From: Vermamoeba vermiformis
Lineage: Eukaryota
DNA length: 64,000 nucleotides
Assembly: GCA_045837725.1 (NCBI GenBank)
Contig: JBEWZL010000044.1
Span: 186,001-250,000 of the forward strand
Direction: 5' to 3'
Part shown: piece by piece, positions 18,555-56,232 of the stretch
Layout: each line of letters starts with the position of its first letter
Numbering within the stretch: the stretch's first letter is position 1
The notes under the pieces: model-generated
Told to the model about the DNA's origin: nothing
Seen by the model: only the letters and a program-made list of their open reading frames with translations
Databases searched by the model: none
Translations under genes and position numbers: made by a program

Positions 18555-21456
18555 TTAACTTAGGTAATCTCGGATAAGAACGTTCTGTCCGGAGCTGGAA
18601 TTAAGTACCATATATCGCGCGTTAGCTTGAATCGCTGGTTCTTTAGTAAGCTCCATCCACTCGATTTTTTGCGAAGGCAAGTGCCACGATCCCAAAATTG
18701 AGGTTCGCGGTTGAGAGAAAACTAGTCTTTCTTTTGAATAAATATCGTTCTGTAAAAAAGTTATTAAATTTAATGTAACAAGATTGTACGCTACTTACAA
18801 GGTTTGTTTGGGGCCAATTCTGAATCATATAAATTGGATCGCTGGTGGATTTTCGAAGATCTACAAATCCAGCACTGAATAATCTCTCATAGCGAGTAAC
18901 GGAAGGCGTTGAGCCAGTAAAAAATATCGTATGTTCGGTGGCAATTTTGATACAGTGCATGAGCATTGAATCTCCAAGAACCTTGACGGGGGCCTCTTTG
19001 CTGCGTGGATCTATCAAAATTACTTTCTGGCGGATGTTTGTACCGATAAAACAACCATTGAAGGGGTTATATTCCAACTGAGGGGTGGTATCGTGAAAAA
19101 TGCGCTCGATGTCACCTGTTTCTACATTGTACAAACGATTCTTTTGTTGAATATTCTCGTTGACTAGAATTCTGTGGTCGATTGGCTTTACGGTAGAAAA
19201 GAAATTGAATCCCATATTTGGATCAACTGTCATATTAATGACTTGCTCTCCTCGAATAATTTTCCAGTTTCTTTGGTCTAAAATTGTTGGCATTGACTCT
19301 CGGTTGTAATTGTTCAGCAACAGGTGTCTTCCTGGATGAGACAATACTGACGTTTGTATTAATTCTTGGGTATGACAGTTCCAATAAGAAAGCTTTTGGT
19401 CGGTGCTTGACAGGACCAACCAATTTTCGTCCATCGCGAGAGTGCCATATCTCGGCAACGTTATCGTGGAGTATTTGTTTTTACACCATGTTGAGCGTAA
19501 CCTTAAAAAAATATCAGTATCTTCGTACATACTCGAATATGATATCTTATACTTACTTAAAATGATCGCGAACGTGTGCTTTGTAACTTGTTTGAAGCTC
19601 TTTGACCGGGAACAAATGAGATTTGTAATATTCTCTAAAACAGGTCTCCGTAGAAACGTCCAAAAACGATGCTACTAATACTTTCAACTTCTTATTGCAC
19701 CATGATAAAGTAACTACGTCTCGTGGCTGCAAATTTTCAATAACGTGAAAGAGAAGTTCATTTGGAAAGGCTAGCAACGGCAATTTAAAATCGGGCCTGA
19801 CTTCTGCTACCGCTGTGGCAGTGTCTTTTTTCGGTTGTTTTTTTTTGAAGTGAAATCTGTGCTGGAACGCAAAGCTTAAGTCTTGCAGTCCTGTCATATT
19901 GTACAGTAATCTTTGCAGTGGCTCAAAGTCGTATCCGCACTCAATCAGATAAACGTAAATCAGCGTTAACTCTTTGGTATTTTGTGCCATTGCCTCCCTA
20001 TGATGGGTGAAGAGGTCACGCAGCTGCTCGGTTTTGCCACTTTCAATCAAACGCTTCAACGCTAAAGAAAACTCCATCGGGTACCTTTCACACGGTCTTT
20101 TTAAGTACTCGACTGCTAGTATCTTGCCCGCTGCATTTCTGTGACAAAAAATATTCGGTTATTGCTATTTTTGGATCCAAACTTACGCTTGCAAAGCCAC
20201 TTCGATTAGTTTGTCGGTTCCATATTTTGCTATCTTAGACCAAATCCGAGAAAATATCTGTTGGTTGCCCTTTTGCAGTGCGTAAAGCAATATGTTGTTT
20301 CCATTTTCATCTTGTTCTACAAAATTTTCATGATTATTAAAACTAGCAAGTTCAGCAACACGGTGGCGGAATTCCAACGAGTAAAAATTCAGCACTAAAG
20401 ATTCAAATCGAAAAAATCCTTGCAGTAATTTGATTTCTGTCCGCAGCATGAACGTGAAAATTTTCCAGCAGGGCCACGATTTCCTGCAATTCCGCCACCG
20501 GTAAGAGAAATTTCCGTACCTAAGAACCACTCAGGATAACATTCGAGATATTTTATCCAATGAATAGACGAAGAATAGTCCCGTAGGTGCTTGAGCGTTT
20601 CTTGAACGGACAAAGGGAACCTCTTGCAAGCCTTGCTTTTGACCAAATATTCGAAGCGTTGCATTTCCTTGGGATCGAATCCCGGATGCCGCTTGGCAGT
20701 CAATATCATCTTGCCCAAATTCTTTCCTATTCTCGTAAAAATTAATACAAGCTTATATCTACATTAGCGCTTACCGTCTTGACTGTGAGCACCAAGTTCA
20801 ATGGCGACTTTGAGGTATTTCAACTTGGCACTAACAATTGACTCCAAACTGAGATCGCCATTCATCGCAAATGGCCTTGCGTACTTTAATTTCTCTTTCA
20901 TTTGATTAATTGAAAGTGTGTTGTCGATAAACTCTGACAAAAAGAAATGTCAGTCCGTAGAATTCATTGAAAAGATCTGGATCTTGTTTACCAAATAAGT
21001 TGCGCCACGAAAACTCCTCGTAACTCCATGACCACTGATCTACTTCAAAAATTGATCGTATTAGCAGCTCGGTAGCAATAACTCTGCAACCTAAACGAAG
21101 CGCCTGCGAGAGATCTGCTTGTCAGATCGAGCATTATAACGAACTACGAAGAACTTACCAAGGATATCAAGTTTTCGCCGTCAATAACTCGATCTAATTC
21201 TTGTCTAACTCGAAAAGTGCTTAATTGAGCGAGTGCAGTTTTAACTGCAGCAAGATCTGAAATCCTAACGGCTTCTGTCAGGTCCTAAAATTCAAATCTT
21301 TAACGATTGGAATTTTTGTATATATTACAGAATTAAAATAATGAGCTGGCAATTATAGGCACGGATTCAGCGGAAAAATAAAGAAAATTAGGTGTCAGTC
21401 TGGCTTACCGTTAATAAATTACTCTCCTCGTTATTCATCGTAACCTTTTCTTGCAT
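18555..21456 (-). CDS. Ankyrin-like + F-box + beta-propeller-like protein (family copy 1), multi-exon
   Basis: DENGNNILLYA; F-box LLAFPNELLFHVIENLQPRDVVTLSWCNKKL; family motifs MDENWL..YWNCHT, YNPFN, GFVDLR; last exon SWHLPSQKIEW..ANARYM..IRDYLS*. Confidence 0.75.
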
Positions 21457-31069: not shown

Positions 31070-33994
31070 TTACAGATCCGAACAAAAGTCAAATATAACC
31101 GTCTTAAGACCATGCTGGAAGTTAGACGCTAAGTACCGTTTGTTGACTGCAACAGGAGATAACGCGTCGTGATATCGTTGAGCTTTGAACTCACTTTGGT
31201 GGATCCACTCGAACTTTTGCGAAGGCAGATGAAACGATGCCAATAGCTCTGAATTGCGACTTCGAGCTACTATGCGCGTTGAAGATACGCAGTATTCTTC
31301 GTGGGCATGACGCGACTTAAACAAGTTATGGTTAGTTATCTTTGAAAACGGATTTGGATCTGATCCACTTACCGGAAGAAGCTTATGTTCGGACCATAGT
31401 ATATTGCCTGTACGTAAGTCAATGAAGCCGTTCGGGCAGCTAGATGAATATTCTTGAAAGAACAAGGTGTATTCATCCACAGCCTCCAAAATGCTGAAGT
31501 CGTAATTGCTGTAATTTGGTAGTTTTGAAAGTAGCTCGTATTGATAATTATAGACTTCTAATTGATTCGTAAGGCTTATCTTCGTAAATGTACGATTGAA
31601 CGGGTTGACCGTCACACCAGCAAATCGGCTGACAAAATTTTGTTCGTTTTTCCGAAAAAGAAATTGATCTACTTCCACATCGTACAGAAGCGCGTCTGTA
31701 AGTTACAAACATTAGTTAGTAAATTCAATTAATTTTTTCTGAGAATTTCGAGCTTAATTTTTTCTTACCCCTATTAATCAAGACTCGATGGTCAATCGGT
31801 TTGACGAAGTCAACGTAGCCACCATAATCTTTTAAGACTTTTTTGGCATTCTGAGGTATCGCATCTTCACCGTTGGAACGAATGGCAAATAGCGGTGCTG
31901 GATGCGAACTGTACTGTAATCTCGTGTAAATTACTGGCGGCACTTTTCCTTGCGAATAAGTGTTTAACAGAGCAAGGGGCTTAGCGTAAGTGCCAAGCGG
32001 TGGTTCCTGAAAGTATTCCTCGTGCGTATGGCAATTCCAGTACGAAAAATTTTGATACGCCGAACGAGAAAGTAGCCAATTTTCGTCCATTAAAAGCGGG
32101 GTTTTGCCAGGAAGAGTGATAGTATTATATTTCTTCTTTCGCCAATTAACTAGACCTCTGTAATAAAACCAATGATCAGATCTTATTGAAATTAAAGAAA
32201 AATACGGATCTGATAAAAAAACAGCCCTATGAATTTTAAAAAATACGATTACATAGTAAAAGAGGTGCTTACTTGGTTTCTTGAACAAATTTATCTTTGT
32301 ACGAAGACCCTTGCCAATTGCCAGATCCGATCTTGAAATGTCTTTCATAATATTCCTTCCAAAACGCTTCATTCGATATTTTCTTTATAAATTCCATCAT
32401 TGTCTTGCTTGCTACTGAAAATCGTTTCAAATCAAATGGTTCTACGTTCAACATTATTAGCGACAAGATCTCAGTCGGAAGAACCGAAATTTCCATCGTT
32501 TTGTTCTTATTGCAGGTATTAATACTAGAATCGACCACGTTATTCTTTTCTTTGATTTTTTGCTTTTTTTGGTCTTCAACAAACCACAACATTTGACTGA
32601 GATCTGGAACTTCTCTGCTGGTGAAGTGCAGCACGTCCATGTGCATGCCACATTGAATCAAATAGGCTTTGAGCACGAAGTCATTGTAAAAATTTCTTGA
32701 GCCATGATAGAGCTGTTCTAAAGTATCTTGTTTGCCTTCTTTTGCTAGCCGAGCTAATGCATCCAGCACCTGACTTGGGATGAAAAAGTCAACTCTTAGT
32801 CCTTCTCTGACGATTGATATGGCAGGCACAACGCCTTCGTGGTAGCTTCTAATGGCATAGTACAAAGTTAGTACTCATTGAGAAAAAAAATTGCGAGATT
32901 AATTCTCAGAAAAAAAATCTCTAAGTGGTCAACTCGATATCTTGCTAATATACGAAAGCTACCACAATCATTAAAGTATAGCTCGTCTCATTATAAGCGC
33001 TAAAATACGCGTACCTTGCAGTGAGTATTCGATAAATTTGATCTTCAGAAGCGTGCGATGACACGAAGTCTAAGCATCGTTTGAACATTTTGACGCGCAC
33101 AGTTTTGGAATTTAGCACGCAAAAATGCATGACATTGCGGCCCATATCATCATTATCTAATAATTAAATCATTTAGAAGTCACAAAGATGAGGAGCATGT
33201 CGCGCATCTTACCTTCAAGCATCGATGGAAAATGTTTGATAAAGTGTTCAGCAATATCAAGGCTTCCCTTCTGAATTATTTCTCGAGAAAAAAATTCGAC
33301 AGATATGGACTTATTATTGATAAATTTGTTATCCAACAGCCACGCGATCAGATCTTTCTTCGGTTTTCTTCTCAATTTACTATTGAATACGCAATCAAAC
33401 AACGAACCTGCTCTAAACATTAATATTGATTGATTTAATATATTCCTTACCTTCATTGTTCGATTTGAGTTTTGCGCCAAGCAATAAAGCTGCAGCAAAA
33501 AATTTAGGCCTTTCGACGAGAGAAGCAACGTCAATTTCTTCTTTGTAGCGAGACAAAAAGCTTAATTTTGAAGCGAATCTCTTTGCTCTTATTTTTTTGT
33601 GCCTATTCTTCTGGGACAACAAAAAATCTTCAAGTAGATCTGTTACACGAAGCGCCAATTAGCTAATTTAATTTCCGACGCAATCAACGGTCACTTACCA
33701 AGCATTTTTAGCCAGCTGAACGCATTGTCATCGTTACAATATTTTTGATGCGATCTTGCAAGCAGAATAAAGGCAGTTTCTTTTGAGATCGTTGTAAAAA
33801 CCTTTTAAAAATGTTAAAAATTGCCAAAAAATACTAATTAATATTACCAATTCTAGCACCGTCTTTCCATTCTCTTTTGATCGAAGAAACTCGTTGATTT
33901 CATTGGGACTGAGAGTTTCGATTATTATCTTAATTTTTTCCTGCTCTAGATTGGATTCAATCGCCTTGCGAAGCTCCGCGATCTTGTTGCTCAT
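31070..33994 (-). CDS. Ankyrin-like + F-box + beta-propeller-like protein (family copy 3)
   Basis: DDMGRNVMHFC; ISVLPTEILSLIMLNVEPFDLKRFSVASK; NWRKKKY..LLMDENWL..YWNCHT; VNPFN; GFIDLRTG; ASFHLPSQKFEW. Confidence 0.75.
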
Positions 33995-40179: not shown

Positions 40180-42177
40180 TATTCCTCGTCGCTATTTTAT
40201 AATAAATAATAAAATAGTTCTAGTTAGGTGCAATGGTGTTACTTTCAAAAATAAATAAAATCGTGTGCTGCGTGATGTTAAAAGAGCCTCGTTTTTGTGT
40301 CTGTCGGTCTTTCAGATTTATTCGTGGACTTTCCACGTGCCATTTTAAATAGCGAGCAAGCGCTTCTTCTAAAATTCTAAAAGAAGGTGCAGCAATACAG
40401 TAGTGCTTGCAAAAAAGATCCCATTTTATTTAACAAAATTTCAGTGGTTTTCTTGCCAATAAGGAGCGTATAATGTAACAAATATAACTGCAAAATAAAA
40501 TCTTGCCAAAACTTTCACAGCGTCTGTCTGCCACGTGATAAAATACTTCAATGAGAATGATTTTTCGTTGTCGTGTAACATGCACGCCATAGCGTTGATC
40601 CAAATGACGTATAATAAGAACACCAAGTAATGCACAGTGTTCCAAAACAATCGGGGCCACAATGCGCCGTCAATCATGCTTCGAACTGTCATTGGCCAAT
40701 CATTCATCAGAAAGACAAGTGCCGTGCATAGAACGAATATTTGCAGCTTGTTTTTGCTTTTGAAGTGGAAAATCTTGTCGGTAAAGGTAAAGTCGTAGAG
40801 TACTACCGCATAAATAACTGTTCCGATGAAAGTTCCGAGAAATCCGAAGTGCGTTGAGCTGACAGGATGCATAAATATTGCGCCAATAATGGACAAAATT
40901 GATGTCTGTATTGTCAGTGTCCTATATAAATTGAAGTTCTTCTGATAGCGAAAATGCTCAGCTATGCGCAGGTTCTCGTACGTGATAAACACGTTCAACA
41001 CGAGAAATGCCACAGCACCAAACCACTGTTTGAGGATGTTCATGAACGATTCGGAGTAAAGTACGTCGTGCACGATCAGCGGAATAAGTATAAATAGCAT
41101 CACTTTCACAAACGAGTCGTCCAGCGGAATAAAGCCTATAAAAGGAAAAATTTTGTTAAAATAAATGAATTTTGATTTGGATGACGGCCTTATTCCGAGC
41201 GTGTATTGGGCAGTTGCCAAAAAAGGAAATATGTTCATGAACTTACCAAACTTTCGTTTCTGCGACAAATTTCTGACCATGTGCAGATTGCCCGAGTAAT
41301 ATGTATCCTGCTTACAATAGGTATCTAAATCAAGCATCACTTCGTATTGAACTCTTTGATCCGCAGTGTTGTGTCCGTCTTCGTGAAAACTGAGAATCGA
41401 CTTCAGATCTTGATTATTGCCTGGAGTGATATATTTAACTCCAATTTTGAACTGTGGATAAGAGTTTTCTAACGTTGCTTTTGTTTTAATTATGTACCTA
41501 AACAGGAAATAACGAATTAAAATTTTGTTGTTGATCAAAAAAACGTCTATTATTATTCGTTTATCATTGAATATTAACTTTTGAAATTAATAAATATGAA
41601 ATTAATGATAAGGGTGATATAAAGACTTACTCATTTTGTTCGTACAATACTAGTAGATTGTTAAGTACATAGTGTCCGTTGTTCTCCAACTCCAATTCTA
41701 GTAATTTTTTGCCTCGTTTTTCGGCCAATGCAATGTCTCTTAAGCGATTATCAATTGGATAATTCGCCTATGCATATCATTAATACCAACCGAAAAAATC
41801 GAATTGTTAAAGATGCACTTACAGGGTAATCCAATAGTTGCTTTTCGCCACCGCTATGTATAAGGACATTCCTTCCGTAAGTAGCACGAGTTCTAAGATA
41901 GATCTAACGTAAGAAATGTTGCATCGAGAATTTAATTTCGTTACACTTACGTATTTACGTAGCGCTCTAATACCAAAATTTTAACTCTATTTTTGGATGC
42001 ATTAAATCGCCAGTATTTACTGACGTTGTGACTTTGCAGCAGAGTTAAGGGATCCATGAATGAAAATATTCCTTAACCAACTGGAAGTCTACACGGTAGA
42101 CGTACCAGAATTTGGACATGGCTGCTCCCATTTCTCATAAATAAGCTCAATAGTAGCCCAGGCTATCGTCTGTTGAG

Positions 42178-42445
42178 TAAATCTGAAGCAAACTGACTAT
42201 CCCCAAACTCTCAGTGCCTACACACGAGGTTTTTTGCGTCAAAGCTGCCTCAGGCACTTTCGTGCTCATGCTACACCACAACGTGTTACATGCTACTAAC
42301 AGTTAGCCTAGCAGGTGATTATGTGAATAAATCTGAAGCAAGCTGACTATCCCCAAACTCTCAGTGCCTACACACGAGGTTTTTTGCGTCAAAGCCGCCT
42401 CAGGCACTTTCGTGCTCATGCTACACCACAACGTGTTACATGCTA
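42178..42445. repeat. Two near-identical 118-bp direct repeats (period 150 bp), subterminal in the insertion
   Basis: 42178-42295 and 42328-42445, taaatctgaagcaa...gtgttacatgcta, 2 mismatches. Confidence 0.95.
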
Positions 42446-42483
42446 TTCACACAATAGTTAACTGATAACTCCTTGTACAAAAC

Positions 42484-45421
42484 TTAAAGATTTACACCTT
42501 TGAATTTCTTCCAGCACTTCTTGTGTAAGGCAACTTTGCACTGAATGCACTTGTAGCTAAGGCAATTAATTAGTTTGACAAAAGTACACCTACACATACT
42601 TACAGTGTAGAAGAAGATATCTTTTGAGTTTGACAAAAGAAACAACGCTTGGAGTTGCCAAATTCGTACGCACAGGTGTGGGTGTATGGATTATGCTTTC
42701 CACTGGCGCGCACAAGATCTAACGCTTCTATTGTGTAGTTTCGTTTCCTTTTTGATTGGAATTCCTCTACCAGGGAGCGCGCTAAATTGGCAAGAAATTT
42801 CTTGGCAGGAATATCACTGTTGGTGAGTCTTTTGAAGAGTGTTTCTGCCTGAACTTGAGCAGAGCGCTCCCAATCTGCAAATACTAAGCGCTCTGTTACT
42901 TTTCGAATCCGGTAGGGCCACTTAAACTTCTTGGCTTTGGAGTTATGCTTATCCACAGAACTGAAGTATGTCCGATATTGTTGCACCAAGTGGGGAGCAG
43001 AGTATGCAAGCTTTTTCTTTTTGTTTCCATCAATTACTTTTTCAGAAATTGAGGCTGCTGTTCCTCGATTACTAGCCCAGTGACAGGTCTTGCCTTGAGG
43101 GTCATAGAATGACATGATGATATCTGAGTCGTTTGTTAAGCTGCGCCATTGTCCTGGCTGTAAACAATGAGCAAGGTTGTTTTGAAACAGGTTAGGGTGT
43201 GATGTTCCAATAATGCCAACAGTGTATCCAATATTGTGCTTTTGCAGGTGCTGCCATAGTGAGGAAAACTCTCTGTCACAAAATACATGATAGTGTGATA
43301 AGTTTCGAGTTGTCAGATTGTTCCATTCTTCATAATTTGTGGGTTCTCTAATAAAGTCATAAACGTGCCTTTGTTTGTCAGGGAGTCTTGACAATAAAAA
43401 ACTGACGGCTTTTTCCAAATCGAAATTTGTCTTTGATGCTCGTGGAAACATTGTTTTAAATGGTAGAGGTCTTTGCGAAAGTTGACCTGTTTTGAAGGCG
43501 TGATATAACTCTCGCCATTTCTTGAACTTGTCTGTTATGGTAGCAAACAGTCCATATCGAGGAATGAAGCCAGACATCCATCCACTTTCATCAATAATGA
43601 CATATTCTAACATTGCCCAAGGGAATGGCTTGCGTAATCTGTAAATCTTGTAAATTGACCTTCCTTTCCAAGCATTTGCTTTATCATCTAAAGCAAGGTG
43701 GCTGAATGGCACCCATATTTCTGAGTAGGTTTGATTCAGAGCTGCCCAAACAAAGTACACATCATACCTAAGACCAAAGGTAAGAACCATTACAGTGAGT
43801 GAACAACGAACTTACTTTTTGTTCCGGTGTATAAACTTGAATTCATCTTTTAGCATTGTTTTAGCAATCCACCTGTTGCCCCACATGGCGCGTGAATGCA
43901 AAAAGGAGGCCCAAGAGTCATCAACAGAATGACCTGGCAATAATTGTTGTGCAATTCTAACACCAAGATAAGCGCGCAAATCGACTGCTTTGATGTGCAG
44001 ATTTGCATCTGTTGTTTTTTCAATATGTTCAATTATGTCATTCATCATAAGTAAGTAACAGTCAAGCTCTGTGACACGTAGTGTTGAAGACAGTTTTGGC
44101 TTTCCCAGTTGATGACGTATTGCATTAATTTTTGTTAAGATGAGCTGGTGCTTTGGTCCTGGGTTTGTCAATGGTTGAGAAGTTTTGGGCTTGAATTTAC
44201 TCCCATCGTTTTTCCACCCAGACAGTTTTGCTTGAAGTTTAGCTGCCAGTAATGGTTATCAAAATGATTAATGAATGAGAAATCAATACCTTCTTTCACT
44301 GCTGCAGGACTTGCGACTTCTGATGTCTCTTCATTATCTTCTTCAATTGATTCACTCATATCATCACTTTCGTTTGCTTCATATTCACTATCTGATATCT
44401 CTATTGGATCACTTTGACATGATGTTGAGTCCCATTCCATAAAATCATTAAATTGCTGTGATTCATTTCCAATAATTCGTGTGGGTCTGGACTTGGTTGG
44501 GGATGAAATACGCTGTGTGCAGTACACTAAGATATAAGCACTTGCAATTCCCTCAAATAACCTCTGCATGAAGTCTTTGGGAGCCTACATTGAGGTTAGA
44601 ACCTGCAAAATGGCATACTTTGACTACCTTTGAGACGACTGCATCATTGAGTTCAAGCCATTGGTTGTTCGCAAGGCTGTAGGTTACGTAGTGACCCTGT
44701 TTAGCAGTTCCTTGGTGCACTATTATTGATTTGAGTTGGTAGGTCTCTGCATGACCACTACAACTGAGCTTTGCTGGAATAACTAGAGTTGACTTGAAGT
44801 GAAACTTCGCTTCATTCTTGTTGCCCAGATTATCAAAACGCTTAAGGTGGAGGACTAATGCAGTGGGGAATGTCAAAAATTTGTGTGAACCCCAGTCCTT
44901 ATCATTGAATAAGTTAAAATCCAAGTCTTATGCAAATGTTACGTACACTGCTGAAAAGTTGAACTAAACTGTCCACAACATTGCCGGGGGCAACTGGAAT
45001 TGAAATATCTAAATTATAAAGTCAATTGAAATTAAGTCGAGTTGCAGCAGTCATTTGTACCTATAAAAGGCTCCATTAATTCTGAACCATTACGTTGTAA
45101 GGCACCACCAAAAACTTGCTTTATAATTCGCTTGAACTCAGAGTCTTCAGTTAACTTGTCCAATAAATTGAGCAGAAACTCTTGTAAATCACGGTGTTCT
45201 TTTTGGTAGCTTGCTTTTGATATTTTCAATAGCCTTGTTAATGGTTCGATATGAATTGTTTTATTACTCTTCATAAGTGTGATAATCTGTCGAAATTCAA
45301 TCGCAAGTTTGTGTGTAGGTTTTGATGATATAACAAGCTCACGGAAAGCTTCAATACTAAATAATAGCTGTAAAGAACTGCTAATGTAGCATGTGGCACC
45401 AAGGTTTACTACTTTGGCCAT
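42484..45421 (-). CDS. USP (peptidase C19) deubiquitinase fused to piggyBac-type DDD transposase with C-terminal Cys-rich domain
   Basis: Six short GT-AG introns connect all pieces in frame. USP: NLGATCY, RDLQEF, LHLKRF, VHQGTAKQGHY, LNDA, SAYILVY. Transposase: ALDD..AWKGR..RKP, VFCDREFSS, PHLVQQY..SSVDKHN. Tail: RCFFC..YKCIQCKVALHKKCW. Confidence 0.82.
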
Positions 45422-46505
45422 TGCCGAGGCACTTTTCGAGGTCGCGTGTGGTTCGGATCTAACACATCAAAAATAAACTGAGTAATCATTAGCCATGTAT
45501 AAAGTGATAATAACTCACCACTATTGTGCGAAATTTACTGGAATTTGTTTACAAAGATGGCAGAAAAAACTCAAACAATAGAGTCCGGGTCCCCTAAATC
45601 GCCTGTACAAAATCTTCTCAATATGAAGTCGCACACCTATCAATAAGATTGTATTAATAAGAGTGTTACAAATCGAAAGTACGACCCGAATAGTTGCAGC
45701 ACAATGGCCGAACAGATCGGAGGCGTTAATTTTAAAAAATAATTCAAAATAATTCAAAAGTGCTTGTAATTGCTTACGAGGCACTCTATTATTAATATTA
45801 TGATTTATCGCGATGGAATTAGTCGTTAATTTTGTTGTGATGCGAAGATCAGAAAAAACAAATCCAGCATCTGGCTTACCAACCAAAAGTTACGGCACTT
45901 CGCATCAATTGCCGTCAATTCAGGGACCACTTTGTACAGAAATATAACTTTAAGATATAAGTGTGGTCGTTCTATGTTGAAAAACGTAATTTTATTGTTA
46001 CAGTCGACTGCGAAATATATGCTCCAGAATTTCCTATAATATGCATATTAGTAAAAGTTATTCATAAGAATTACATTGATAATTATTTAGGTGACCAAAG
46101 CGAATTTAAAATTAAAAGAACTGTCGAAGACCAACCGGATTTGAATAAGCGGCCATCACTTAAGAAGCCTTACCTCGGGCATAACTTTATCAATAATTGC
46201 GTCACTTGGAGGAACATAGCGACTATTTTTAACTACGTCGACTAGCCTTTGCAAAGTTGAAACAAGGATCGTCACCACGACGATCACGAGCGCAATGAAT
46301 ACCCAAAGCATTGCCGTTATTTGATTATCTTTTGATACGGCCGTGCATTCCTCAATTTGAAATTGTTTGAATCACTTTCTGTTAGCTTCGATCTTTTCAG
46401 ATAAAATCGGACGTGACCGTTAGGAACATAGGAGCACACTCAAATTGAGACAATGATACAACAGCTTAGTTAAAACGATATCTTTAATACCACGGCACAT
46501 CAGCG

Positions 46506-48296
46506 ATGCAGTGGGTATTTATCGCGTTGGTGGTTCTGATCGTGTCGATCCTCGTCACAGCTTTGCAGCGAATCATGAATACGGTCAAAAAGGGTCTTTA
46601 TATACCACCGAGTGAAGCAATCATCGATCAATCAATACCACAGGTAAACGTCAACAGATAATCACCACTTTTTAATTTTTCTTTTGTTCGAATCTATTTA
46701 TTCCGACCAATCATTTGGCTAAACATGTTGGCAACGTATCATATATGTATAATTAACTAATAATAATAATTTAGGAAATTTTGGAACATATTTTTTCGTT
46801 CATGGATCCGCAAACTCTGCTGCAAAGTCACAACGTCAGTAAATACTGGCGTTCTCATGCATCTAAAAATCACGTTAAATCAATCGTGTTGGAGCAATAC
46901 GTTAAATCGTACGTTCATCCGTTTTAATTTTTACGAGCTATTCGATCTGACTTCAAACAATATTTAGCGTTCAACAAGAGCTTCCAGGCATTGAAAACCA
47001 TTGGATAAATTACCACGTAAGATTATTGCGACTATTGATTATTTTAGTACATAACTGAATTAGATTCGTTGTAGGAGACTTATCCAATCGACCGTCGATT
47101 GAGTGACATTGCTTTGGCTCAAAAACGCGGTAGAAAATTAATAGAATTACAACACAAAGAAAGCCCGTTCTTCGTAGTTGGCTCGACGCCCATTTGGAAT
47201 GAGCTGTACGTGATCAAATGTAGCTAAATTCGGTTGAGACGCGAACTAATAATGCAATTTCCTAATTAGGTATATCATCAAAACATTCGCTGCATTAGTT
47301 GCGACAACTTATCCGGTGCAGTTTGAGTTTGTAATCGCCGGCAAAAATGTTCGAGCAACCAACAGTCTTCAAATTGCACCAATATTGAGCCTCAAAAGTG
47401 GAGCTTTTGACACAAGTATCAAATACGAAGCTATGTTAAACTTGGAAGATTATTGCAGCAATCAAGCCCAATCTAATTTAATCTTGTTCCGTAACCCGCG
47501 TAAAGAAGAAAAAAAACGACTCGGTACGTACGCACTAAAGCCGTTAAATATTAATCTATAAATACAATTTTAATTTCGTTTCAGCTAATTTTACTAAATA
47601 GGAATAATTCCGTTGGACAGCACGTTTTTGACGGTGATGATCTTTTTGATTATTCCGCTGATCGTTCACGACGTACTTTACTCCGAATCATTCATAAACA
47701 TTCTCAAGTACTGGTTTGGACCAATAGCATTTCTCGTGCTGAACGCGTTAGTAACGATAGAAAGCTGGCACATGGTGCGTTACTATTCCAATTACAGAAA
47801 CGTTGGATTATACAAGAAATTGGTGATATCGTCGTCAATTTCAGCGATTATAGGGTTCATATTATTATACCCGCTTAGCGCTACGCACTTTGCGTTTATT
47901 GGCCTGTTTGGTTTCACGTTTATGTATTCCTTCCTGTTGTACGAGCATTGCGTTGGAGAAAAATGGTACCTTCCGAAGAGCAAAGAGAAACTTCACTTAT
48001 TTATCATTTGCGCGGCACTTGTCTTGCTGACAAATGATTGGTCAGTGACAATTCGAAGCATGATTGATGGCACATTGTGGTTCCGATTGTTTTGGAACAC
48101 GATTCATTTCTTATTCTTCCTTGGCTACTCTTTATGGGTACATATTATATCGTTAATATTGCAGGATCGAAGGAAGGCCTGGAGCTGGGACAAGTTGAAA
48201 AAGTGGGATCGACAGGCTGTCAACTTAATGCTGGGGTACTATTGCTCAGCCGTATTTGTAACATTGTATGCTCCGAATTGGCAAGGAAATTACTAA
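46506..48296 (+). CDS. Membrane anchor + F-box + polytopic TM family member, apparently intact
   Basis: MQWVFIALVVLIVSILVT...PQ|EILEHIFSFMDPQTLLQSHNVSKYW...; TM exon PLIVHDVLYSE, NDWSVTIRSMIDG, TLYAPNWQGNY. Confidence 0.8.
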
Positions 48297-48450: not shown

Positions 48451-50031
48451 ATGCAGTGGGTATTTATCGCGTTGGTGGTTCTGATCGTGTCGATCACAGT
48501 TGCAGCTTTGCAACAAATCATGAATACGTCAAAATGAGTCTATATATACCACCGAGTGAAGCAATCATCGATCAATCAATCCCACAGGTAAATGTCAAGA
48601 TACGATCAGTTGACAAGATGATTTCATTTTTAGGCTGATTTTTGTTAAATATAATTACGGCCTGCTTAAGATCTTGGAAACATATCATTTATGATTAATT
48701 AACTAATAATAATAATTTAGGAAATTTTGGAACATATTTTTTCGTTCATGGATCCGCAAACTCTGCTACAAAGTCACAACGTCAGTAGATACTGGCGGTC
48801 TCATGCATCCAAAAATCACGTTAAATCAATCGTGTTGGAGCAATACGTTAAATCGTACGTTCATCATATTAGTTTTTACGAGCTCTTCGATCTGACTTTA
48901 TTTTCAGCGTTCAACAAGAACTTCCAGGCGTTGAAAACCATTGGACAAACTACCCGGTAAGACTATCGCGGATTATACTGAGCACATAGCTGACTTGGAT
49001 ATTTTGTAGGAGAATTATCCAATCGACCGTCGATTGAGTGACATTGCTTTGGCTCAAAAACGCGGTAGAAAATTGATAGAATTGAAGCAGAGGCAGCGAC
49101 GATTCTTCAGAGGGATGCCTGAATCATTACGAAATCAGTAATATAAAGGTTTCAAGTCCTTACGGATAATTACTAATTATTCCTAATTAGGTATATCGTC
49201 AAAATACTGGCTTCAGTGGTTGCGCCAAAATTTCCATTGATCTTAGAAATAGGCTACAAAGGTTTCACGATACAGAATAGAAACGTGGAGGGAATTGTTA
49301 GTCGCGAACGATCAAACAGACGCTTGGATAATACTAACGATTGCCTAATATAGGAATGATTCCGTTGGACAGTTCGTTCATACCCACGATGCTATTTTTG
49401 GCAGCACCGATTATCGTGCACGACATGCACGACATTCTAATTTCCGAATTAGTTGAACCTTTTCGAACAGTGGTTCGGACTAATAGTGTTTATAGTGGGC
49501 AGTCTGTTCTTCACAAAAGCAAGTTTACGTTTAGCAACGGACCAGGCCGTCGATAAGACAAGCGAAAAAATCTTCAAAATAATTATTATATTTGCGACCT
49601 TTTCTACAACGATATCGTTCATATCGGGATACCCACTTAGTGCAGCTCACTTTGCATTTCTGGGAATTTTTGTTGCCACATTTTTCTACAGCTCTGCGCT
49701 GTATGAACACTATTTTGGCGGCGAAGCTTGGTACCGTCCGAAAAGCAAAGACAAACTGCAATTATTTATTATATGTGTGGCCCTAGTGTTGCTAATGAAT
49801 GATTGGTCAATGGCAGTACGAAGCATGATTGATGGCACGTTCTGGCACCTATTGTTATGGAACACAGTTCACTTCTCTTTATTTGCTCTGTACTATTTAT
49901 GGGCGATAATGGTTGATGCGATACAGCTCGATTTCAGCCAAAGACTAATGGATCCCATTTTAAAAGGGTTTGGACTAGGTTATGCCACAATTTTTGTAAC
50001 ATTGTACGAGCCTTATTGTCTGAATAAATAA
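48451..50031 (+). pseudogene. Decayed tandem duplicate of 46506-48296
   Basis: Near-identical 5' exons, but a 1-bp loss (acgtc vs acggtc) gives TGA at 48535-48537; exon 5 is truncated and the frame is disrupted near 49420-49455. Confidence 0.8.
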
Positions 50032-50179: not shown

Positions 50180-52037
50180 ATGCTGTGGGTCTTAGTTGGG
50201 CTCTTGGTTGTGATCGTTTCGATCCTGGTTACGGCGTTGCAGAAGGTTATGAATTCGGTTATTAGTCGTCGCTATGTCCCACCGAGCGATGCAATTATTG
50301 ACCAAGTGATGCCAGAGGTATGAACGCATCTGGAGCGGCAGAAAAAAAATTAAAATAGTCTTTATGTAACGTAAAATTATATTTCTATGTTAATTATCAC
50401 TCTGGCAGTTCCTTTGACTCATACTAATATTCTATTTTAATTTAGGAAATTCTGGAGCATATTTTTTCGTTTACGGATCCTTTAACTCTTCAACGGTGTA
50501 GCAATGTGAGTAGATATTGGCGCTCTCATGCTTCTAAAAATCATGTCAAGACGGCAGTGGTAGAAAGATACGTAAATGCGTAAGGCTAGCGAAATTAATT
50601 GCTCGATCTCGTTTTAAAAATGTTGGCACGGCAGGGTTCGAAATTCAGACTACGTTTGCGAATTGGTTGCCCAATTTGGAGATGGTTTTTTGAGGAAATA
50701 TCCGGTAAGCTTAACGTTTCATGAAAAAACACTTCGGATCCGATTTAAATTTCCTTTTGTAGGCGAATTATTCGGTTGATAATCGCTTGTACGATATGGC
50801 AATGGCCGAAAAAAGAGGCAAACAATTATTAGAAGTCGAATTTCCACCACAGGCGTATCACATAAGAGGTGCAATGGCCAACCCTAAAAACACTTCGTAC
50901 GTGTGGTTGTCTTTGCAAACATTTATTGCAAACTAATACTTTCTTATTGTAGTTATATTATTAAGTCTTCTGCAACGTTAATCTCCACTCCGAGATTCAG
51001 AATTGGTCCGCACAGCATCAGTTCAGCTACTTGGCACATGGCACCAGTACTCAGTTTTGACGACTTTGGACTGGCCGACAAAAATGTAAAGTACGACGTG
51101 ATGCTGAGTTTGAGCGATTATTGCAACGAAAATATGCACGAAGCCAATTTTTTGATGGTCAGAAATTTAACCGCTAAGAAGAGTCGATTCGGTAAGTTCT
51201 ATTTAGACTTGCCTAATTAGGAAAGGATAGGGCGTGCAAAAATGATTTGTTAATCAAAATAGGTCTTTTCCTAATTTAGTTATCAATCTAATGTTTTCCT
51301 TTTTAGGATTTATTCCACTTGACGACTCGTTCCTAAAGGCACTCGCGTTCTTATTTATTCCGCTGATCGTTCACGACGTACAGCAGTCCGAGCCGTTCAT
51401 GAATCTGCTCAAGTTCTGGGCCGGACCAATCACAGTCTGCGTACTGACTTTTGTTGTCACACGCGAGGACCTTGAAAATTTGGATTACGCTGGCGGCGGC
51501 AACAAGAACGCAAAATTATACAAAATTTTGGTCATATCCACAGCGGTGGCAGTACTTATAGGCTTTGTGTTATTATACCCAACGAGTTCCACGCATTGGG
51601 CATTTTTAGGCCTAGTACTTGCTGCATCGTCGTACGTTTGGATGCTGTGCGAGTACGTTTTCGGAGAAAATTTTGGCGGCGACCGAACTGCTTATTCGAA
51701 GAATTTGCATCAATTTAAAACTAAGGAACGAAAACAATTGATGTATGTGTGTGCGGCACTAGTGTTGCTCATGAACGATTGGTCAGCGACCGTGCGAAGC
51801 TTTAATGACGGCACAATATGGTACCGATTGTTATGGAACACCGTGCATTATATGGGCTTGCCTATTTACGCTATTTGGAACAATGTTATGGCGTGCATTT
51901 TAGCGGATCAACAACACGTCTTTCGATGGAAGTACTTCATCGATTGGGATAGCAGTTTGGCAAAGCAATTTGTGTATTTTTATGGATCAGCTGTACTTAT
52001 AACATTATATGCGCCGTACTGGCAGGGAAATCACTGA
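50180..52037 (+). CDS. Membrane anchor + F-box + polytopic TM family member, apparently intact
   Basis: MLWVLVGLLVVIVSILVT...VMPE|EILEHIFSFTDPLTLQRCSNVSRYW; TM exon PLIVHDV, NDWSATVRS, WNTVH, TLYAPYWQGNH. Confidence 0.8.
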
Positions 52038-52310: not shown

Positions 52311-55300
52311 ATGTTGTGGGTCCTCGCAGCGCTGGTGCTTATGATAGTAGCACTTCTCTTGCATTTCTTAAAGCAGATCATGGCAGCGGTTGCTAAAAAT
52401 CGTTATTATCCGCCAAGTGATGCATTTATTGATCAAGTATTGCCCGAGGTAATTAACAGTTAATTTTATCGAGTTAATTATTTGATTTTCAAATAAATTC
52501 TGCAGTCTTAATTTTTTTCTAGCCTCATTTCGCTTTAAAAATCGTTTTTTGGTGATTTGTTATTCAAATAATTATATTTATGATTTTTATTATGATTTAG
52601 GAAGTATTGGAGCACATACTCTCATACGCAGATCCGTTGGCTGTTGTGTACTGCCAGTCAGTTAGCAAATATTGGCGTTCTCATGCCTCCAAAAAACGTA
52701 TAAAATTACAAGTATTAAAAACCGCCATTAACGAGTAAGTTAATTTTTGCTGGTAGCAAGATGCGATGTTGATCTATTTTTGTTAGAGTTAGAAATTTGC
52801 CTGATGTTAAAAGTAACATTCGAGATATAAAGAGATGGACGGAATACCCGGTAAATATTAGAATTGTAGCGCTAATCATAACTAAACGGTCATTTCTAGG
52901 AGGGCGAGAAGATCGAGCAAAGGCTGGCTGATTTTGCCTTGGCTCAAAGGCACAACAAATATCTCCTCGATATTATCGCAAAATTTTCAATATGGGACAT
53001 TAGAGAATTAATGCATCCTGATAAGTACGCTTCATCTATCGAAAATTTCATTCGATCGAATCTCATCCGGATTAAGGTTAATTTTAACGTTATAATTTAT
53101 ATAGATACGCTATAAAGACAGTAGGAAAATTGGTCAATTATCCTACATTTGATATAGCAAACTTTGGACATGTGACGTTCCACAACGGATCTGCCTTTGA
53201 ATCCGTCGTACACAACAAAACGCCGAGTTATCACAGTAACGAGCTATATGAGATAGTAGCGCCATTAGATCAGTGCTTGCATCACACTGAACCTCGCGAA
53301 ATGTTGATGTGTCGACCTATCAAACAGATAGACTCAGCGCAAGACGAAAATATTCAGAGTTTAATTCAAGATCTGAGTGTCAATCAAATCAACGCATTTC
53401 TTCGCTCAAAAAAAGATGATACGACGATGCTCGAATATGTAATAATAATATATTAATTCATGTAATTTGCATTTACAACTTGTATTTTGTAGGTATTTAC
53501 AACGAGATCAAAAGAAATTGCGTTTCTTTTGCTAACAAAGTCTCAACCCAAATATATTCACGCAGATAATGAATTTAGCTGGTATAAATTATTCGGTAAT
53601 TATAATATGTGATGTAACGCAATGGGACAACTGACGAACAACTTCCATCCAGATCGGCTTGAATCTTTCCTGTTATCTCAGCGGAATCGAAAGAACAAAA
53701 TACCAGCAAAACGACTAGCCTCAAAACTGCACTTTTTATCACGATATAATCAAGATATAGACTTGCAATCTCTTATTTTAAGACCAAAGTTTTTTGCGGC
53801 AGCGTTACTTCTCGGCGCAACCTTCAATTCTACTCAACGTACGTCTAATTATTATTGCTATAATCAATTTGTTAATATTTACCAGAGTCGATTGCTGAAT
53901 TCGTGCTCGAGAGTAACTTGCCGGTTAATCCAGAGAAGAAAAATCTGATCTCGTGGCTGTTAGACAACAAATTCATTGAAAACAACTCTATTTCAGTGAA
54001 AATATTCGCAAAAACACTTCAAGGAGGAGGCTCTTTTATAACGAAACTGCTAATCAAACATTTTCCATCGCTGCTAGAAGGTCAGATCCGCTCCTTTGAA
54101 TTCGACCTCTTAGCATCTCTTAACTGTATATATTCGTTCAGATGTAGATGCCGACGGCTGCAATGTAATGCACTATTGCGTGCCAGGACCAGTTAGAGTG
54201 AGACGGTTCGCACAGTGCTTGAAGTTTATGTTGTCGAACGTTACTTCTGAACAATTATATAAACTATTAACAGCCAGGTAAGCTTAAATATAACTCCTTA
54301 ATACTTATAGTATCATATAATATAATTTAAATACTTGTGCACTGCCTATAGTGGTATTTTAAGCAAGATCTGATCCGCAGACAGCTTCAAAAATCAACCC
54401 ACCACTAATCGTATTATTATATAGAAGCAATGACTATACAATACCAGTTATAACTGCCTTTCGACACATATACGGAAGGTCCAATATGATTATGCCTTTA
54501 GAAATAATGAACGTACTGGCTCAACTGGCACGTGACAACAAAGAAGATATTTTGAGTCAGATTTATGATGGCGCTAATTGGATGAAAAGAAAGTTCCTGT
54601 TTAATCGGTATTTGCTTCAATATGGCATGAAAATGGACATGGCGTTATTTACAACTAGATACGACGTTACTCGTGCAAGCCAATTGTTATGGTCTGTCAA
54701 GCTATCACAAAAATCAGTACAAAATGAACAAGATCTGGCAAAAGATACCAAATTGACCAGTCCCAATCACATTAGCGAAATTTCGAGTGAAATTTTAAGT
54801 TTGCCGAAAGATATCTTGCTATTGATCCTCTTGGAGCTAAGACCAGCCGATTTGTCGCACTTCTCAATAACCTGCAAATTTACAATGGAATTTCTTGGAA
54901 ATGAACAGTCCACTCAAAATGAAAGATTTTGCAGGGGCTATTACGAGAGACAGTACAAATCAATCGGCTGTAATTGGCAGGGACAGTCATACAAAGCAAA
55001 GTTCGTTCAAGAAACAAAGTAAGTTACCTTCTATATGTATATATTCCTGTTTAACTAGATTTTTTTGAATCCGTTTGATCTGATCTCGTTTTTTTCAGAG
55101 GGCTTGCTAACTGGCGTAACAAGAAATTTACAGTTGCAACTGTCATTGACGATTTTGAGCCTTATTTAATGGACGAGAATTGGCTCCTCATGATGAATAG
55201 TGGCAATAGTAACTTTTTGTACTGGAACTGTCATACGCAACAATTAGTCAGATCTCAGACCAAATCAACCGTACTTTATACCAAACCATTATTGATTATA

Positions 55301-56232
55301 GGAAAGTACTCGCATGGTGCATTACCACCAATACTTTATGCTGCTTGCAGCGCTTACCGTGGCGGAACCAAAGTTACGATCCGAACCAGTAACGATGAGA
55401 ACTTTGCACCTAGAAATATCAATCAGCTGTTAGCAGATCATATACCTACCATTACTGCGATTGGTATCGATCACAGAGTGCTAGTAACAAGCGGTACGTC
55501 AGTCTAAATAATTCGCAGAAATTTAACCAAAATTGTACTAATAATGATTGTTCACCTATTACCAAGTACCTTTTAATTTAATTTAATTTTAGCCGGCCTT
55601 TTGTACGATACCGAAGTAGACAAATTCATTGGTCCCACAGACTTTCAAGTTGGCTCAAGCAAGTCACCATGTTGCGTAAATCTATTTAATCAAACGTTTA
55701 TGAAACGTCGAGATCAATACTTGGAAATCTATAATTACCAGTATGATCTGCTGACGAAAATTCCGAGCCCAGGTGCTGACTACGCAACTTTACAAGCTGT
55801 CGACGAGAACACGATCTTTTATCAACAGTTCACTACAGAATTGTATTCTGGTTATATAGACTTGCGTACTGGTAAAGTTCTATGGTCCGACCCTGGTTTA
55901 CTTCCAGAAGTAAGTACTAGATCCAACAGTAGATCTGCCGACAACTTTTGTTGATCCGCTGCGGAACTCATTTTTTATTCGTTTAGATATCAGCAGGAGC
56001 AATATCATCGACTCGCTTTGTATTTAAAGACAATAGCACAGAATTATTGGCTTCGTTTCATCTTCCTTCTCAGAAATTTGAGTGGATCTATCCGAGCGAG
56101 ATCCGTGCCTCAAACGATTACACCCGGTCGAACTCGTACAATTCCAACGTCCCTGTCACAATTAATAGCAGATACTTGGCCAATAGAACGCGTAACAAAA
56201 CAATTTTGTTCGATTTTGGTTCAGATCTGTAG
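52311..56232 (+). CDS. Chimeric gene: membrane-anchor F-box N-half fused to ankyrin-like/F-box/propeller protein
   Basis: Exons 1-5 match the membrane family. Within exon 5 the sequence switches to ENIQSLIQDLSVNQINAFLRSKKDDTTMLE, homologous to the N-terminus of the 33994 gene; the remaining exons match that family. Confidence 0.75.

What the first reader, a model, noticed from the sequence alone, without database searches (positions are those of the whole stretch)
42484..45421. Deubiquitinase-armed transposase: USP (C19) fused to a piggyBac-type DDD transposase
Seen: five separate ORF-track entries plus two unlisted exons join through six short GT-AG introns (e.g. 44289-44243) into one stop-free frame. 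It contains a compact USP with Cys box (NLGATCY), D..EF box, His box (HQGTAKQGHY) and ND motif; an acidic linker; a piggyBac core with three Asp motifs (ALDD, FCDRE, SVDKH); and a C-terminal Cys/His domain. Known: some DNA transposons carry Ulp1 or OTU proteases; I know of no USP-piggyBac fusion but cannot verify this. Inference: the transposase may remove ubiquitin from itself or from chromatin to evade SCF/proteasome control. It sits inside a disrupted F-box gene in an F-box-rich region, which suggests transposon-host conflict over ubiquitin.
Basis: partly seen in the sequence, partly recalled or inferred. Interest (0 to 1): 0.92.

Follow-up and report, generated by a model that had tools for sequence, protein, structure and literature searches.

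The report
Deubiquitinase fused to piggyBac transposase
A 4-kb mobile element that has landed inside an F-box gene of an unidentified freshwater eukaryote encodes one protein joining a ubiquitin-removing enzyme to a piggyBac-type transposase, a combination I could not find described.

Summary
On the minus strand, seven exons (45421-42484) joined by six 43-52 nt GT..AG introns give one 883-aa frame. It reads: a compact USP/C19 domain with Cys, His and Asp boxes intact, an acidic linker, then a complete piggyBac-type transposase with the DDD triad and a Cys/His tail.

Spliced RNA contigs confirm three of the six coding introns and two 5'UTR introns. None covers the USP-transposase junction.

A metagenome contig, L001, 58% identical in protein, has the same fusion with all six intron positions. 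Synonymous sites are saturated, yet the USP, core and Cys-rich tail are conserved and only the linker drifts.

The gene lies in a 3.95-kb insert (46012-~42066) that splits the F-box exon of a host gene. Paralogues give the empty site. L001 and an RNA contig share the same 3' end with different flanks. This points to a mobile element rather than a fixed host gene.

It has no terminal inverted repeats and no TTAA duplication.

None of 20 scanned relatives carries a USP. The nearest published precedents are protease- and deubiquitinase-bearing transposons, including a C19-transposase protein in Trichomonas. What the USP does is untested.

The parts
42066..46012 (-). The whole inserted element, about 3.95 kb. 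The 5' end is exact. The 3' end is uncertain by up to 4 nt because of a possible target duplication.
   Evidence: Host exon sequence stops at 46013 and resumes at 42069-42063. Paralogous exons give the uninterrupted site. Both termini occur once in the window.
46001..46010 (-). 10-nt perfect palindrome (CAGTCGACTG), 2 nt from the 5' end of the element
   Evidence: Read. Its function is unknown.
45878..45966 (-). 5'UTR exon U1. The RNA contig reaches at least this far; the true start is unknown and may extend to 46012 or beyond.
   Evidence: joint 45634->45878 with 89 nt on the far side.
45635..45877 (-). 5'UTR intron, 243 nt, GT..AG
   Evidence: spliced contig of run X8.
45519..45634 (-). 5'UTR exon U2
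   Evidence: contig record 6.
45459..45518 (-). Second 5'UTR intron, 60 nt. Splicing it creates an in-frame TGA 12 codons upstream of the ATG.
   Evidence: the 14-nt loose end at 45519 equals window 45458-45445. The frame was worked out.
45061..45421 (-). Coding exon 1: ATG, USP Cys box (N6, C11) and QEFL box
   Evidence: (closest solved structure is the USP34 catalytic domain, E 7e-10).
44947..45008 (-). Coding exon 2, 21 codons: the shortened 'fingers' region of the USP, without zinc-binding CxxC pairs
   Evidence: The length is the same in L001.
44628..44897 (-). Coding exon 3: USP KRF box, His box (H210) and ND (D226)
   Evidence: UCH, 8.8e-18; Ubp8, 3.7e-07. The introns on both sides are confirmed by RNA.
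44290..44584 (-). Coding exon 4: last strand of the USP (to about residue 256), then the acidic linker (20 D/E in 79 residues)
   Evidence: The linker evolves nearly neutrally (pN/pS 0.88).
44243..44289 (-). Intron 4, the junction between the USP/linker part and the transposase part. Phase 1. Position and phase are kept in L001.
   Evidence: Not covered by any RNA contig.
43816..44242 (-). Coding exon 5: N-terminal region of the piggyBac transposase (GWKNDG...)
   Evidence: weak DDE_Tnp_1_7. In one search the printed N-terminal parts of P0004, P0006 and P0008 resemble this exon by eye; exon 5 itself was not aligned to them.
42604..43767 (-). Coding exon 6: catalytic core with D499, D636 and D744, plus the first half of the Cys/His domain
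   Evidence: and 62 (a profile aligns the three Asp to those of piggyBac 6x67 and piggyBat 9c0f).
42484..42556 (-). Coding exon 7: second half of the Cys/His domain, and the stop codon
   Evidence: Residues 831-883 are 83% identical to L001.
42152..42451 (-). Two tandem 150-nt repeats just downstream of the stop codon. Their conserved ~65-nt core is also present twice in L001.
42066..42104 (-). Conserved 3' terminal block, including an imperfect 7-8 bp palindrome at 42103-42085. It is 90% identical to L001, and similarity stops at the end of the element.
   Evidence: The RNA contig of X8 leaves the window sequence at 42064.
46174..46311 (-). Host gene, first coding exon (46 codons; a short hydrophobic segment, transmembrane-like by eye)
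   Evidence: A paralogous exon lies on the + strand at about 46521-46661.
46013..46033 (-). Host F-box exon, first 21 nt, cut off by the insert. The last 6 nt (ATATTT) recur at 42069-42064, so the target duplication is at most 6 bp.
41951..42065 (-). Host F-box exon, remainder
   Evidence: Pfam F-box-like E 8.6e-4.

Best explanation
This is an autonomous, probably recently mobile DNA transposon of a deeply divergent piggyBac lineage. Its single multi-intron gene encodes a USP-type deubiquitinase fused, through a disordered acidic linker, to the N-terminus of a complete piggyBac transposase.

Shown:
- the spliced open frame;
- transcription and splicing of both halves;
- intact catalytic residues in both enzymes;
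- long-term purifying selection on both halves in two diverged copies;
- a clean insertion into an F-box exon;
- one shared 3' terminus with three different flanks.

Inferred:
- The protein is made as one chain.
- The transposase moves the element. It would do so using unusual ends: a palindrome near each end and tandem 150-nt repeats on the 3' side, in place of short TIRs, and a target other than TTAA.
- The tethered USP acts in cis or locally. It would strip ubiquitin from the transposase or from chromatin and repair factors at the break, prolonging transposase life or steering repair.
For: Frame and domains.

Homology. The catalytic Asp residues align with those of piggyBac 6x67 and piggyBat 9c0f. 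The halves of the USP match USP34 and Ubp8.

RNA. Run X8 has contigs lacking introns 2, 3 and 5 (3 of 6 coding introns) and the 243-nt UTR intron. A loose end fits the second UTR intron.

Conservation. L001 was the only locus found in the metagenome scan. It keeps all 6 intron positions and an open frame through a linker that differs by in-frame indels. pS is 0.80-0.90 (saturated) in these parts. pN is 0.35 in the USP, 0.27 in the N-terminal region, 0.23 in the core and 0.10 in the Cys-rich domain. In the linker pN/pS is 0.88.

Mobility.
- The host F-box exon is split, and the two halves rejoin to match the paralogues at 8364, 46775 and 50447.
- Similarity to L001 runs at 90% to within 2 nt of that same boundary and then stops. 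The next 528 nt of L001 match nothing in the window.
- An X8 contig with no differences over 93 nt leaves the window sequence at 42064 for 58 unrelated letters. A 22-nt part of those letters is absent from the window.
Against: - No terminal inverted repeats. The best local alignment of the two 600-nt ends scores 21, against a shuffle mean of 21.7.
- No TTAA duplication. The most the junctions allow is ATATTT.
- Only one copy in 64 kb and only one related locus in the metagenome collection, so copy number is unknown.
- Eight introns in total is many for a transposon.
- No RNA or protein evidence spans the junction.
- The 5' end could not be checked in a second copy, because L001 starts 14 nt inside the element.
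- The different flank in X8 rests on one low-depth contig (depth 2.1).
- Deubiquitinase activity and transposition are untested.
Confidence: 0.6

Rival explanations
1. It is a domesticated, now immobile host gene: a piggyBac-derived protein fused to a USP, comparable to PGBD1 or CSB-PGBD3. It happens to have been born from an insertion into an F-box gene and now serves a cellular function, for example a chromatin-targeted deubiquitinase that uses the transposase as a DNA-binding module.
For: - No TIRs and no TTAA.
- Strong purifying selection on every domain over a divergence that has saturated synonymous sites.
- Intron-rich gene structure fully conserved.
- Expressed and spliced.
- Very few relatives anywhere: 37 hits in 1.84 billion representatives and 1 metagenome locus.
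Against: - The whole transcription unit, including UTR exons and the conserved 3' repeats, lies inside the insert.
- The 3' boundary defined from host paralogues coincides with the point where L001 and the X8 contig diverge into other flanks. A fixed gene does not predict this.
- The DDD triad and Cys-rich domain are intact, although some domesticated piggyBac genes keep them too.
Confidence: 0.25
2. There are two adjacent genes on one strand, a small USP gene and a piggyBac transposase gene, that are not joined in the mature message. The continuous frame would be a by-product of my choice of splice sites.
For: No RNA contig covers 44100-44458, so intron 4 and the junction are unconfirmed.
Against: - The USP frame has no stop before the intron-4 donor.
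- The position and phase of intron 4 are kept in L001, although the linker beside it has diverged to 38% identity with four in-frame indels.
- By eye (not computed), the first in-frame Met after the junction lies roughly 50 residues into the transposase part, downstream of its conserved N-terminal motif.
- Retaining the intron gives a stop after 46 codons.
Confidence: 0.08
3. It is a decaying, one-off capture: a piggyBac copy that picked up a host USP fragment, now inactive, in a dead element.
For: Relatives at 24-31% identity (P0003-P0006, P0008) lack a USP (0 of 20 scanned hits). The fusion is therefore confined to one sub-branch.
Against: - Two copies 58% identical in protein both keep the USP with its Cys, His and Asp boxes. 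pN in the USP (0.35) is far below the saturated pS.
- There are no frameshifts or stops in either copy.
Confidence: 0.05

Closest known systems
piggyBac-like elements (Trichoplusia ni piggyBac, PDB 6x67/6x68; piggyBat, 9c0f)
   Same: Transposase of the DDE_Tnp_1_7 family. Three catalytic Asp align. There is a C-terminal Cys/His domain. A single gene fills most of the element.
   Different: - Only remote similarity: 37 hits at E<=1e-3 in 1.84 billion proteins, and the Pfam match is partial.
- No 12-19 bp TIRs and no TTAA duplication. The review PMC5381638 (passages read) gives both as general features of the superfamily.
- It has an N-terminal USP and eight introns.
Host-transposase fusion genes PGBD1 (SCAN-piggyBac) and CSB-PGBD3
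   Same: An N-terminal non-transposon domain is joined by splicing to an entire piggyBac transposase. piggyBac tolerates N-terminal fusions (PMC5381638, passages read).
   Different: In those genes the partner exons belong to the host gene around a fixed insertion. Here the USP exons lie inside the inserted unit and travel with it. The partner is an enzyme of the ubiquitin system.
Protease or deubiquitinase domains in other DNA transposons: Ulp1 in Mutator and Ginger1, OTU in Ginger1 and Helitrons, VTD in Helentrons
   Same: A cysteine protease of the ubiquitin/SUMO system is encoded in the same protein as the transposition enzyme. The proposed role is protecting transposition proteins or modulating repair (PMC2836005; PMC9741609; passages read).
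   Different: The protease fold family differs (USP/C19) and so does the transposase superfamily (piggyBac). Here the protease is N-terminal.
Trichomonas vaginalis XP_001314237.1 (transposase_11, pfam01609, plus Peptidase C19)
   Same: A USP-class hydrolase in one protein with a DDE transposase. It is cited in PMC2836005 (passage read) from Gladyshev and Arkhipova 2009.
   Different: It is annotated with the IS4/IS5-type domain, not piggyBac. I could not see its sequence or the source paper (not held), so its relation to this element is untested. No protein with both domains appeared among the hits to this transposase.

Membership tests
piggyBac superfamily (transposase) | Sequence homology to DDE_Tnp_1_7 (PF13843) | tested here: met
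   Exon 6: E 3.8e-11, 43.3 bits against a cutoff of 22.4. A profile of the sub-family hits 6x67 (1.1e-07) and 9c0f (1.9e-06). The nearest Atlas clusters are all PF13843.
piggyBac superfamily (transposase) | DDD catalytic triad | tested here: met
   D499, D636 and D744 are invariant in 8 of 8 aligned relatives. They align to the IDE, MDN and VDxxDQ positions of the solved transposases. The identification of those positions with the published catalytic residues is recalled.
piggyBac superfamily (transposase) | C-terminal cysteine-rich domain | tested here: inconclusive
   An H/C pattern of 9 residues at 830-874 is shared with P0004-P0006 and is 83% identical in L001. Pfam zf-Tnp_2 did not hit it.
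piggyBac superfamily (element) | TTAA target-site duplication | tested here: not met
   The junctions allow at most ATATTT. A TTAA lies 9 nt inside the 3' end, not at the junction.
piggyBac superfamily (element) | Short terminal inverted repeats | tested here: not met
   Local alignment of the two ends is no better than shuffles. The repeat finder gives no flanking pair other than host paralogues.
USP / peptidase C19 | UCH (PF00443) homology across the domain | tested here: met
   Exon 1 covers profile positions 3-129 and exon 3 covers 142-239 of 254; both score above the cutoff.
USP / peptidase C19 | Catalytic Cys, His and Asp/Asn, and the oxyanion Asn | tested here: met
   N6, C11, H210 and D226 are present in the window and at the matching places in L001. 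Assignment of their roles is from recalled USP motifs.
USP / peptidase C19 | Cleaves ubiquitin conjugates | not testable with these tools
   Needs an enzyme assay.
Domesticated piggyBac-derived gene (PGBD type) | Fixed, syntenic single-copy locus in related species | tested here: not met
   The 3' flank of L001 is unrelated to the host F-box gene and to the rest of the window. The X8 contig has a third flank. The test is weak, with only three flanks, one of them from a distant copy.

The most novel reading that the evidence does not exclude
This is an active piggyBac-lineage transposon that has given up the TTAA/TIR rule and integrates through asymmetric ends: a terminal palindrome, a subterminal hairpin and 3' tandem repeats. 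Its transposition depends on a built-in USP that deubiquitinates the transposase itself or histones and repair factors at the excision site. That would be the first case of a cut-and-paste transposase carrying its own ubiquitin eraser as a required activity.
Probability: 0.2. Interest if true: 0.85.

Novelty: new variant of a known kind. Interest (0 to 1): 0.62.

Why it matters
Transposons that carry Ulp1, OTU or VTD proteases suggest that mobile DNA often has to deal with the host's ubiquitin and SUMO systems. None of those proteases has been tied to a step of transposition.

This element offers a clean test bed. It has one protein, two well-understood enzyme folds, and a linker that can be cut. 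piggyBac transposases can be assayed in heterologous cells (recalled), although this divergent one has never been tested.

If the USP raises transposase stability or shifts repair outcome, that would explain why such fusions recur. It could also suggest ways to tune engineered piggyBac systems.

The missing TTAA and TIRs, if confirmed on more copies, would widen what a piggyBac-family enzyme can recognise.

Tried and rejected
- Whole genome: none is held for this window, so copy number and other flanks could not be examined.
- Sequencing runs: no RNA holder listed.
- RNA runs X20-X22 of organism A: 0 reads laid on 42000-46000. By the tool's own note this is no test.
- Fused relatives by word search: exon 6 against longer proteins, none. 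USP exon 1 against longer proteins, none at E<=1e-5. A profile of the family against near lengths returned only 3 proteins, all from metagenome sources.
- Other collections: viral contigs by protein profile and by the 19-nt 3' terminus, nothing. Genome contigs, nothing.
- Rfam and tRNA scans of the window: nothing. The 3' tandem repeats therefore match no known RNA family. I did not test them for RNA structure.
- AlphaFold2 of exon 6 with the 8-row alignment: mean pLDDT 54.7, too poor for a fold search, so none was made.
- USP structure: the spliced protein cannot be handed to the structure tools, so the USP fold was not modelled.
- Taxon of the host: the Atlas search with a TPR ORF returned only generic bacterial TPR clusters and says nothing. 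The host remains unidentified.
- Syntenic orthologue: I first read the L001 match as a syntenic orthologue, because 39 nt at 90% overlap the host exon boundary. I rejected this once the alignment showed similarity ending at the element's terminus and an unrelated flank.
- Inverted core motif: a possible inverted copy of the repeat core near the 5' end (ACCACA-type motif) is no more than a 6-10 nt resemblance, and I do not count it.
- Papers: Gladyshev and Arkhipova 2009 is not held. Supplements are closed, so the target-site table of PMC5381638 (its supplementary S2) could not be seen.
Full report
**What is there**

The window is eukaryotic: about 38% G+C, long exons, and short GT..AG introns. 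No whole genome is held for it, and the host organism stays unidentified.

Between 45421 and 42484 on the minus strand, seven exons join into a single frame. They are 45421-45061, 45008-44947, 44897-44628, 44584-44290, 44242-43816, 43767-42604 and 42556-42484. The six introns are 52, 49, 43, 47, 48 and 47 nt. The frame is 883 codons with one terminal TAA.

**Domains**

Of the six exon ORFs scanned with Pfam:
- UCH/USP (PF00443) hit exon 1 (E 1.3e-15; profile 3-129 of 254) and exon 3 (8.8e-18; profile 142-239).
- piggyBac DDE_Tnp_1_7 (PF13843) hit exon 6 (3.8e-11) and, below its cutoff, exon 5 (0.013).

Among solved structures, exon 1 is closest to the USP34 catalytic domain (7.3e-10) and exon 3 to yeast Ubp8 (3.7e-07).

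The USP is about 256 residues. It keeps N6 and C11 (Cys box), QEFL, KRF, H210 (His box) and D226. The middle 'fingers' part is short and has no CxxC pairs. The roles of these motifs are recalled, not computed.

An acidic linker follows, with 20 Asp/Glu in 79 residues. After it comes a complete transposase. A profile of the sub-family aligns LDD(499), DREF(636) and VDKH(744) with the catalytic Asp positions of T. ni piggyBac (6x67) and piggyBat (9c0f). The three Asp are invariant in all 8 aligned relatives.

The C-terminus carries a nine-residue His/Cys pattern shared with those relatives. Pfam's zf-Tnp_2 does not recognise it.

**Expression**

The stretch is held by DNA runs of 'organism A' and by four water-metagenome runs of one study.

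I laid four runs on 42000-46000.
- The three raw RNA runs of organism A placed no read, which the tool calls no test.
- Run X8 (organism B, contigs, RNA only by guess) placed six contigs, all at least 99% alike.

Because the X8 contigs lack introns, they are RNA-derived. They remove:
- intron 2 (44946-44898), intron 3 (44627-44585) and intron 5 (43815-43768), exactly as modelled;
- a 243-nt intron upstream (45877-45635).

A 14-nt loose end at 45519 matches 45458-45445. That gives a second 5'UTR intron, 45518-45459. Splicing it puts a TGA in frame 12 codons before the ATG at 45421, which fixes the start codon.

So 3 of 6 coding introns and both UTR introns have RNA support, and both the USP part and the transposase part are transcribed. 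No contig covers 44100-44458. One message across the junction is therefore inferred, not shown.

**A second copy keeps the fusion**

phmmer of exon 6 against 1.84 billion representative proteins gave only 37 hits at E<=1e-3. This is a thinly sampled and very divergent piggyBac branch.

The closest hits are ORF-sized fragments from metagenomes: P0001 at 66% identity, and P0002 at 53%. The next hits (P0003-P0006, P0008) are 24-31% identical in the alignment and 470-650 aa long.

I scanned 20 of the 37 hits with Pfam. All 20 have PF13843 and none has UCH. The USP is therefore an addition within one sub-branch.

L001 contains the whole gene:
- the same seven exons;
- all six introns at the same codon positions and phases, 39-54 nt long, all GT..AG;
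- an 887-residue frame without stops.

Protein identity between the two copies is 58% overall. By region it is 50% in the USP, 38% in the linker, 60% in the N-terminal transposase region, 65% in the core and 83% in the Cys-rich tail.

Synonymous differences are saturated (pS 0.80-0.90) in every part except the linker. Non-synonymous differences are 0.35, 0.27, 0.23 and 0.10 in the USP, N-terminal region, core and tail. In the linker, pN/pS is 0.88 (pS 0.54).

The linker differs by four indels, all in frame. N6, C11, H210, D226 and the three Asp are kept.

Both enzymes, and the open frame that joins them, have thus been held by selection for a long time. This is the main argument against two of the alternatives: two separate genes, or a dead one-off capture.

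**It is an insertion**

On the same strand, a host gene starts at 46311.
- Its first exon (46311-46174) is followed by a 140-nt intron.
- A second exon begins at 46033 and encodes the start of an F-box.
- After 21 nt the host sequence stops (46013).
- It resumes at 42069-42063 and runs to 41951. This part hits Pfam F-box-like, E 8.6e-4.

Three paralogues in the window, at 8364, 46775 and 50447, have this exon uninterrupted. Joining the two halves reproduces their sequence and reading frame.

The insert therefore runs from 46012 to about 42066. It contains the whole transcription unit. The junctions allow a duplication of at most 6 bp (ATATTT, at 46018-46013 and 42069-42064).

The insert is in the exon, not merely in an intron. 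With the insert, the host frame as read from the DNA reaches a stop four codons into the element.

**Is it mobile?**

Three observations define the same 3' end.
1. The host-paralogue reconstruction above.
2. L001 aligns with the window through the 3' region. The last 39 nt before the end are 90% identical, the best-conserved non-coding stretch. Similarity stops within 2 nt of the boundary. The following 528 nt of L001 match nothing in the window by blastn or tblastx.
3. An X8 contig is identical to 42156-42064 and then continues with 58 unrelated letters. A 22-nt part of them is absent from the window.

The same terminus thus sits in three different contexts, one of them at near-identity. That is what a transposon predicts and a fixed gene does not.

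The 5' end could not be checked in the same way. L001 begins 14 nt inside the element, although its UTR exon and intron do align (score 73 against shuffles of 33 +/- 4.5).

**What does not fit piggyBac**

The two ends share no inverted repeat. The best local score was 21, against a shuffle mean of 21.7 and a maximum of 32. The duplication is not TTAA.

Instead the ends show:
- at the 5' end, a perfect 10-nt palindrome (46010-46001);
- at the 3' end, an imperfect 7-8 bp palindrome (42103-42085), kept in L001 with changes at the ends of its stem;
- upstream of that, two tandem 150-nt repeats (42451-42152). Their ~65-nt core is conserved in both repeats of both loci and occurs nowhere else in the window.

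They match no Rfam family. I take them as candidate binding sites for the transposase. That is inference.

The review of the superfamily (PMC5381638, passages read) states that TTAA and 12-19 bp TIRs are general features. It says other duplications were seen for only five single-copy elements.

The transposase is therefore a member of the piggyBac family, while the element fails two defining features of piggyBac elements. More copies are needed before this is taken as real rather than as the result of one odd insertion.

**How it most likely works**

My best reading (0.6) is an autonomous transposon whose transposase carries its own deubiquitinase.

Shown: the structure, expression, selection and insertion described above.

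Inferred:
- The fused protein is made.
- It moves the element.
- The USP, tethered by a flexible acidic linker, works in cis or close by. It would remove ubiquitin from the transposase, prolonging its life, or from chromatin and repair proteins at the double-strand break.

Authors have made the same kind of proposal for Ulp1/OTU domains of Ginger, Mutator and Helitron elements (PMC2836005) and for VTD deubiquitinases of Helentrons (PMC9741609). In neither case was it tested.

Rivals:
- A domesticated, immobile USP-piggyBac host gene (0.25). It is favoured by the missing TIRs and TTAA, the many introns and the strong selection. It is disfavoured by the three flanks.
- Two separate genes (0.08).
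- A decaying one-off capture (0.05). L001 contradicts this.

**Comparison with what is known, and novelty**

I found no description of a USP joined to a piggyBac transposase. The searches were:
- 'piggyBac' with 'ubiquitin-specific protease', 'deubiquitin' and 'ubiquitin carboxyl-terminal hydrolase';
- 'Peptidase C19' with 'transposase';
- the two Pfam accessions together (no paper);
- 'transposon-encoded deubiquitinase'.

The main text of the piggyBac review has no occurrence of 'ubiquitin'. Its supplements, like all others, were closed. Repbase and Dfam could not be searched.

The idea itself has precedent. Ulp1, OTU and VTD proteases occur in other transposon superfamilies. Bao et al. (PMC2836005, passage read) also mention a T. 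vaginalis protein with a transposase_11 domain and a Peptidase C19 domain. I could not obtain that protein or its source paper.

I therefore rate this a new variant of a known kind. It would interest transposon and ubiquitin biologists, and its unusual ends add interest. It is not categorically new.

F-box genes are everywhere in this window.

Noticed in passing
window 8360-10245, 40441-42069 with 46013-46311, 46521-48296, 49453-50031, 50443-52037: A family of at least four or five paralogous genes. Each has a small hydrophobic first exon and a short F-box exon, followed by a large multi-pass-membrane-like C-terminal exon ending in ...LYAPYWQxN. Pfam finds no family for the large exon. F-box proteins with a polytopic membrane domain are unusual.
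   Followed up: partly
window 40964-42069 versus 46790-47773: The host gene carrying the insert and its neighbour on the other strand are head-to-head paralogues. Their inverted arms are 77-80% alike. The element thus sits at the centre of an inverted gene pair.
   Followed up: partly
window 2475-2978 (+): An ORF with a Ulp1/Peptidase_C48 catalytic domain (E 7.9e-06). I did not check whether it is a host SUMO protease or part of another transposon.
   Followed up: no
window 12084-13244 (-): A retrotransposon or retrovirus-type integrase (rve 1.7e-12, Integrase_H2C2 1.3e-08). The chromodomain-like ORF beside it suggests Ty3/gypsy, but it was judged by eye and not scanned. A long antisense ORF overlaps the integrase.
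   Followed up: no
window 42152-42451 and L001 3487-3786: The tandem 150-nt repeats downstream of the stop codon keep a ~65-nt core almost unchanged between two loci whose synonymous sites are saturated. No Rfam match.
   Followed up: partly
window 43939: The X8 RNA contig reads G where the window has A (depth 7, one contig). This could be a strain difference, a second copy or editing; it cannot be told apart here.
   Followed up: no
window 3222-7327 (-), 18643-20158 (-), 31070-32874 (-), 54363-55507 (+): Further F-box genes with ankyrin or propeller-like C-terminal parts, several of them as very long single exons. The region is a dense F-box gene cluster.
   Followed up: no
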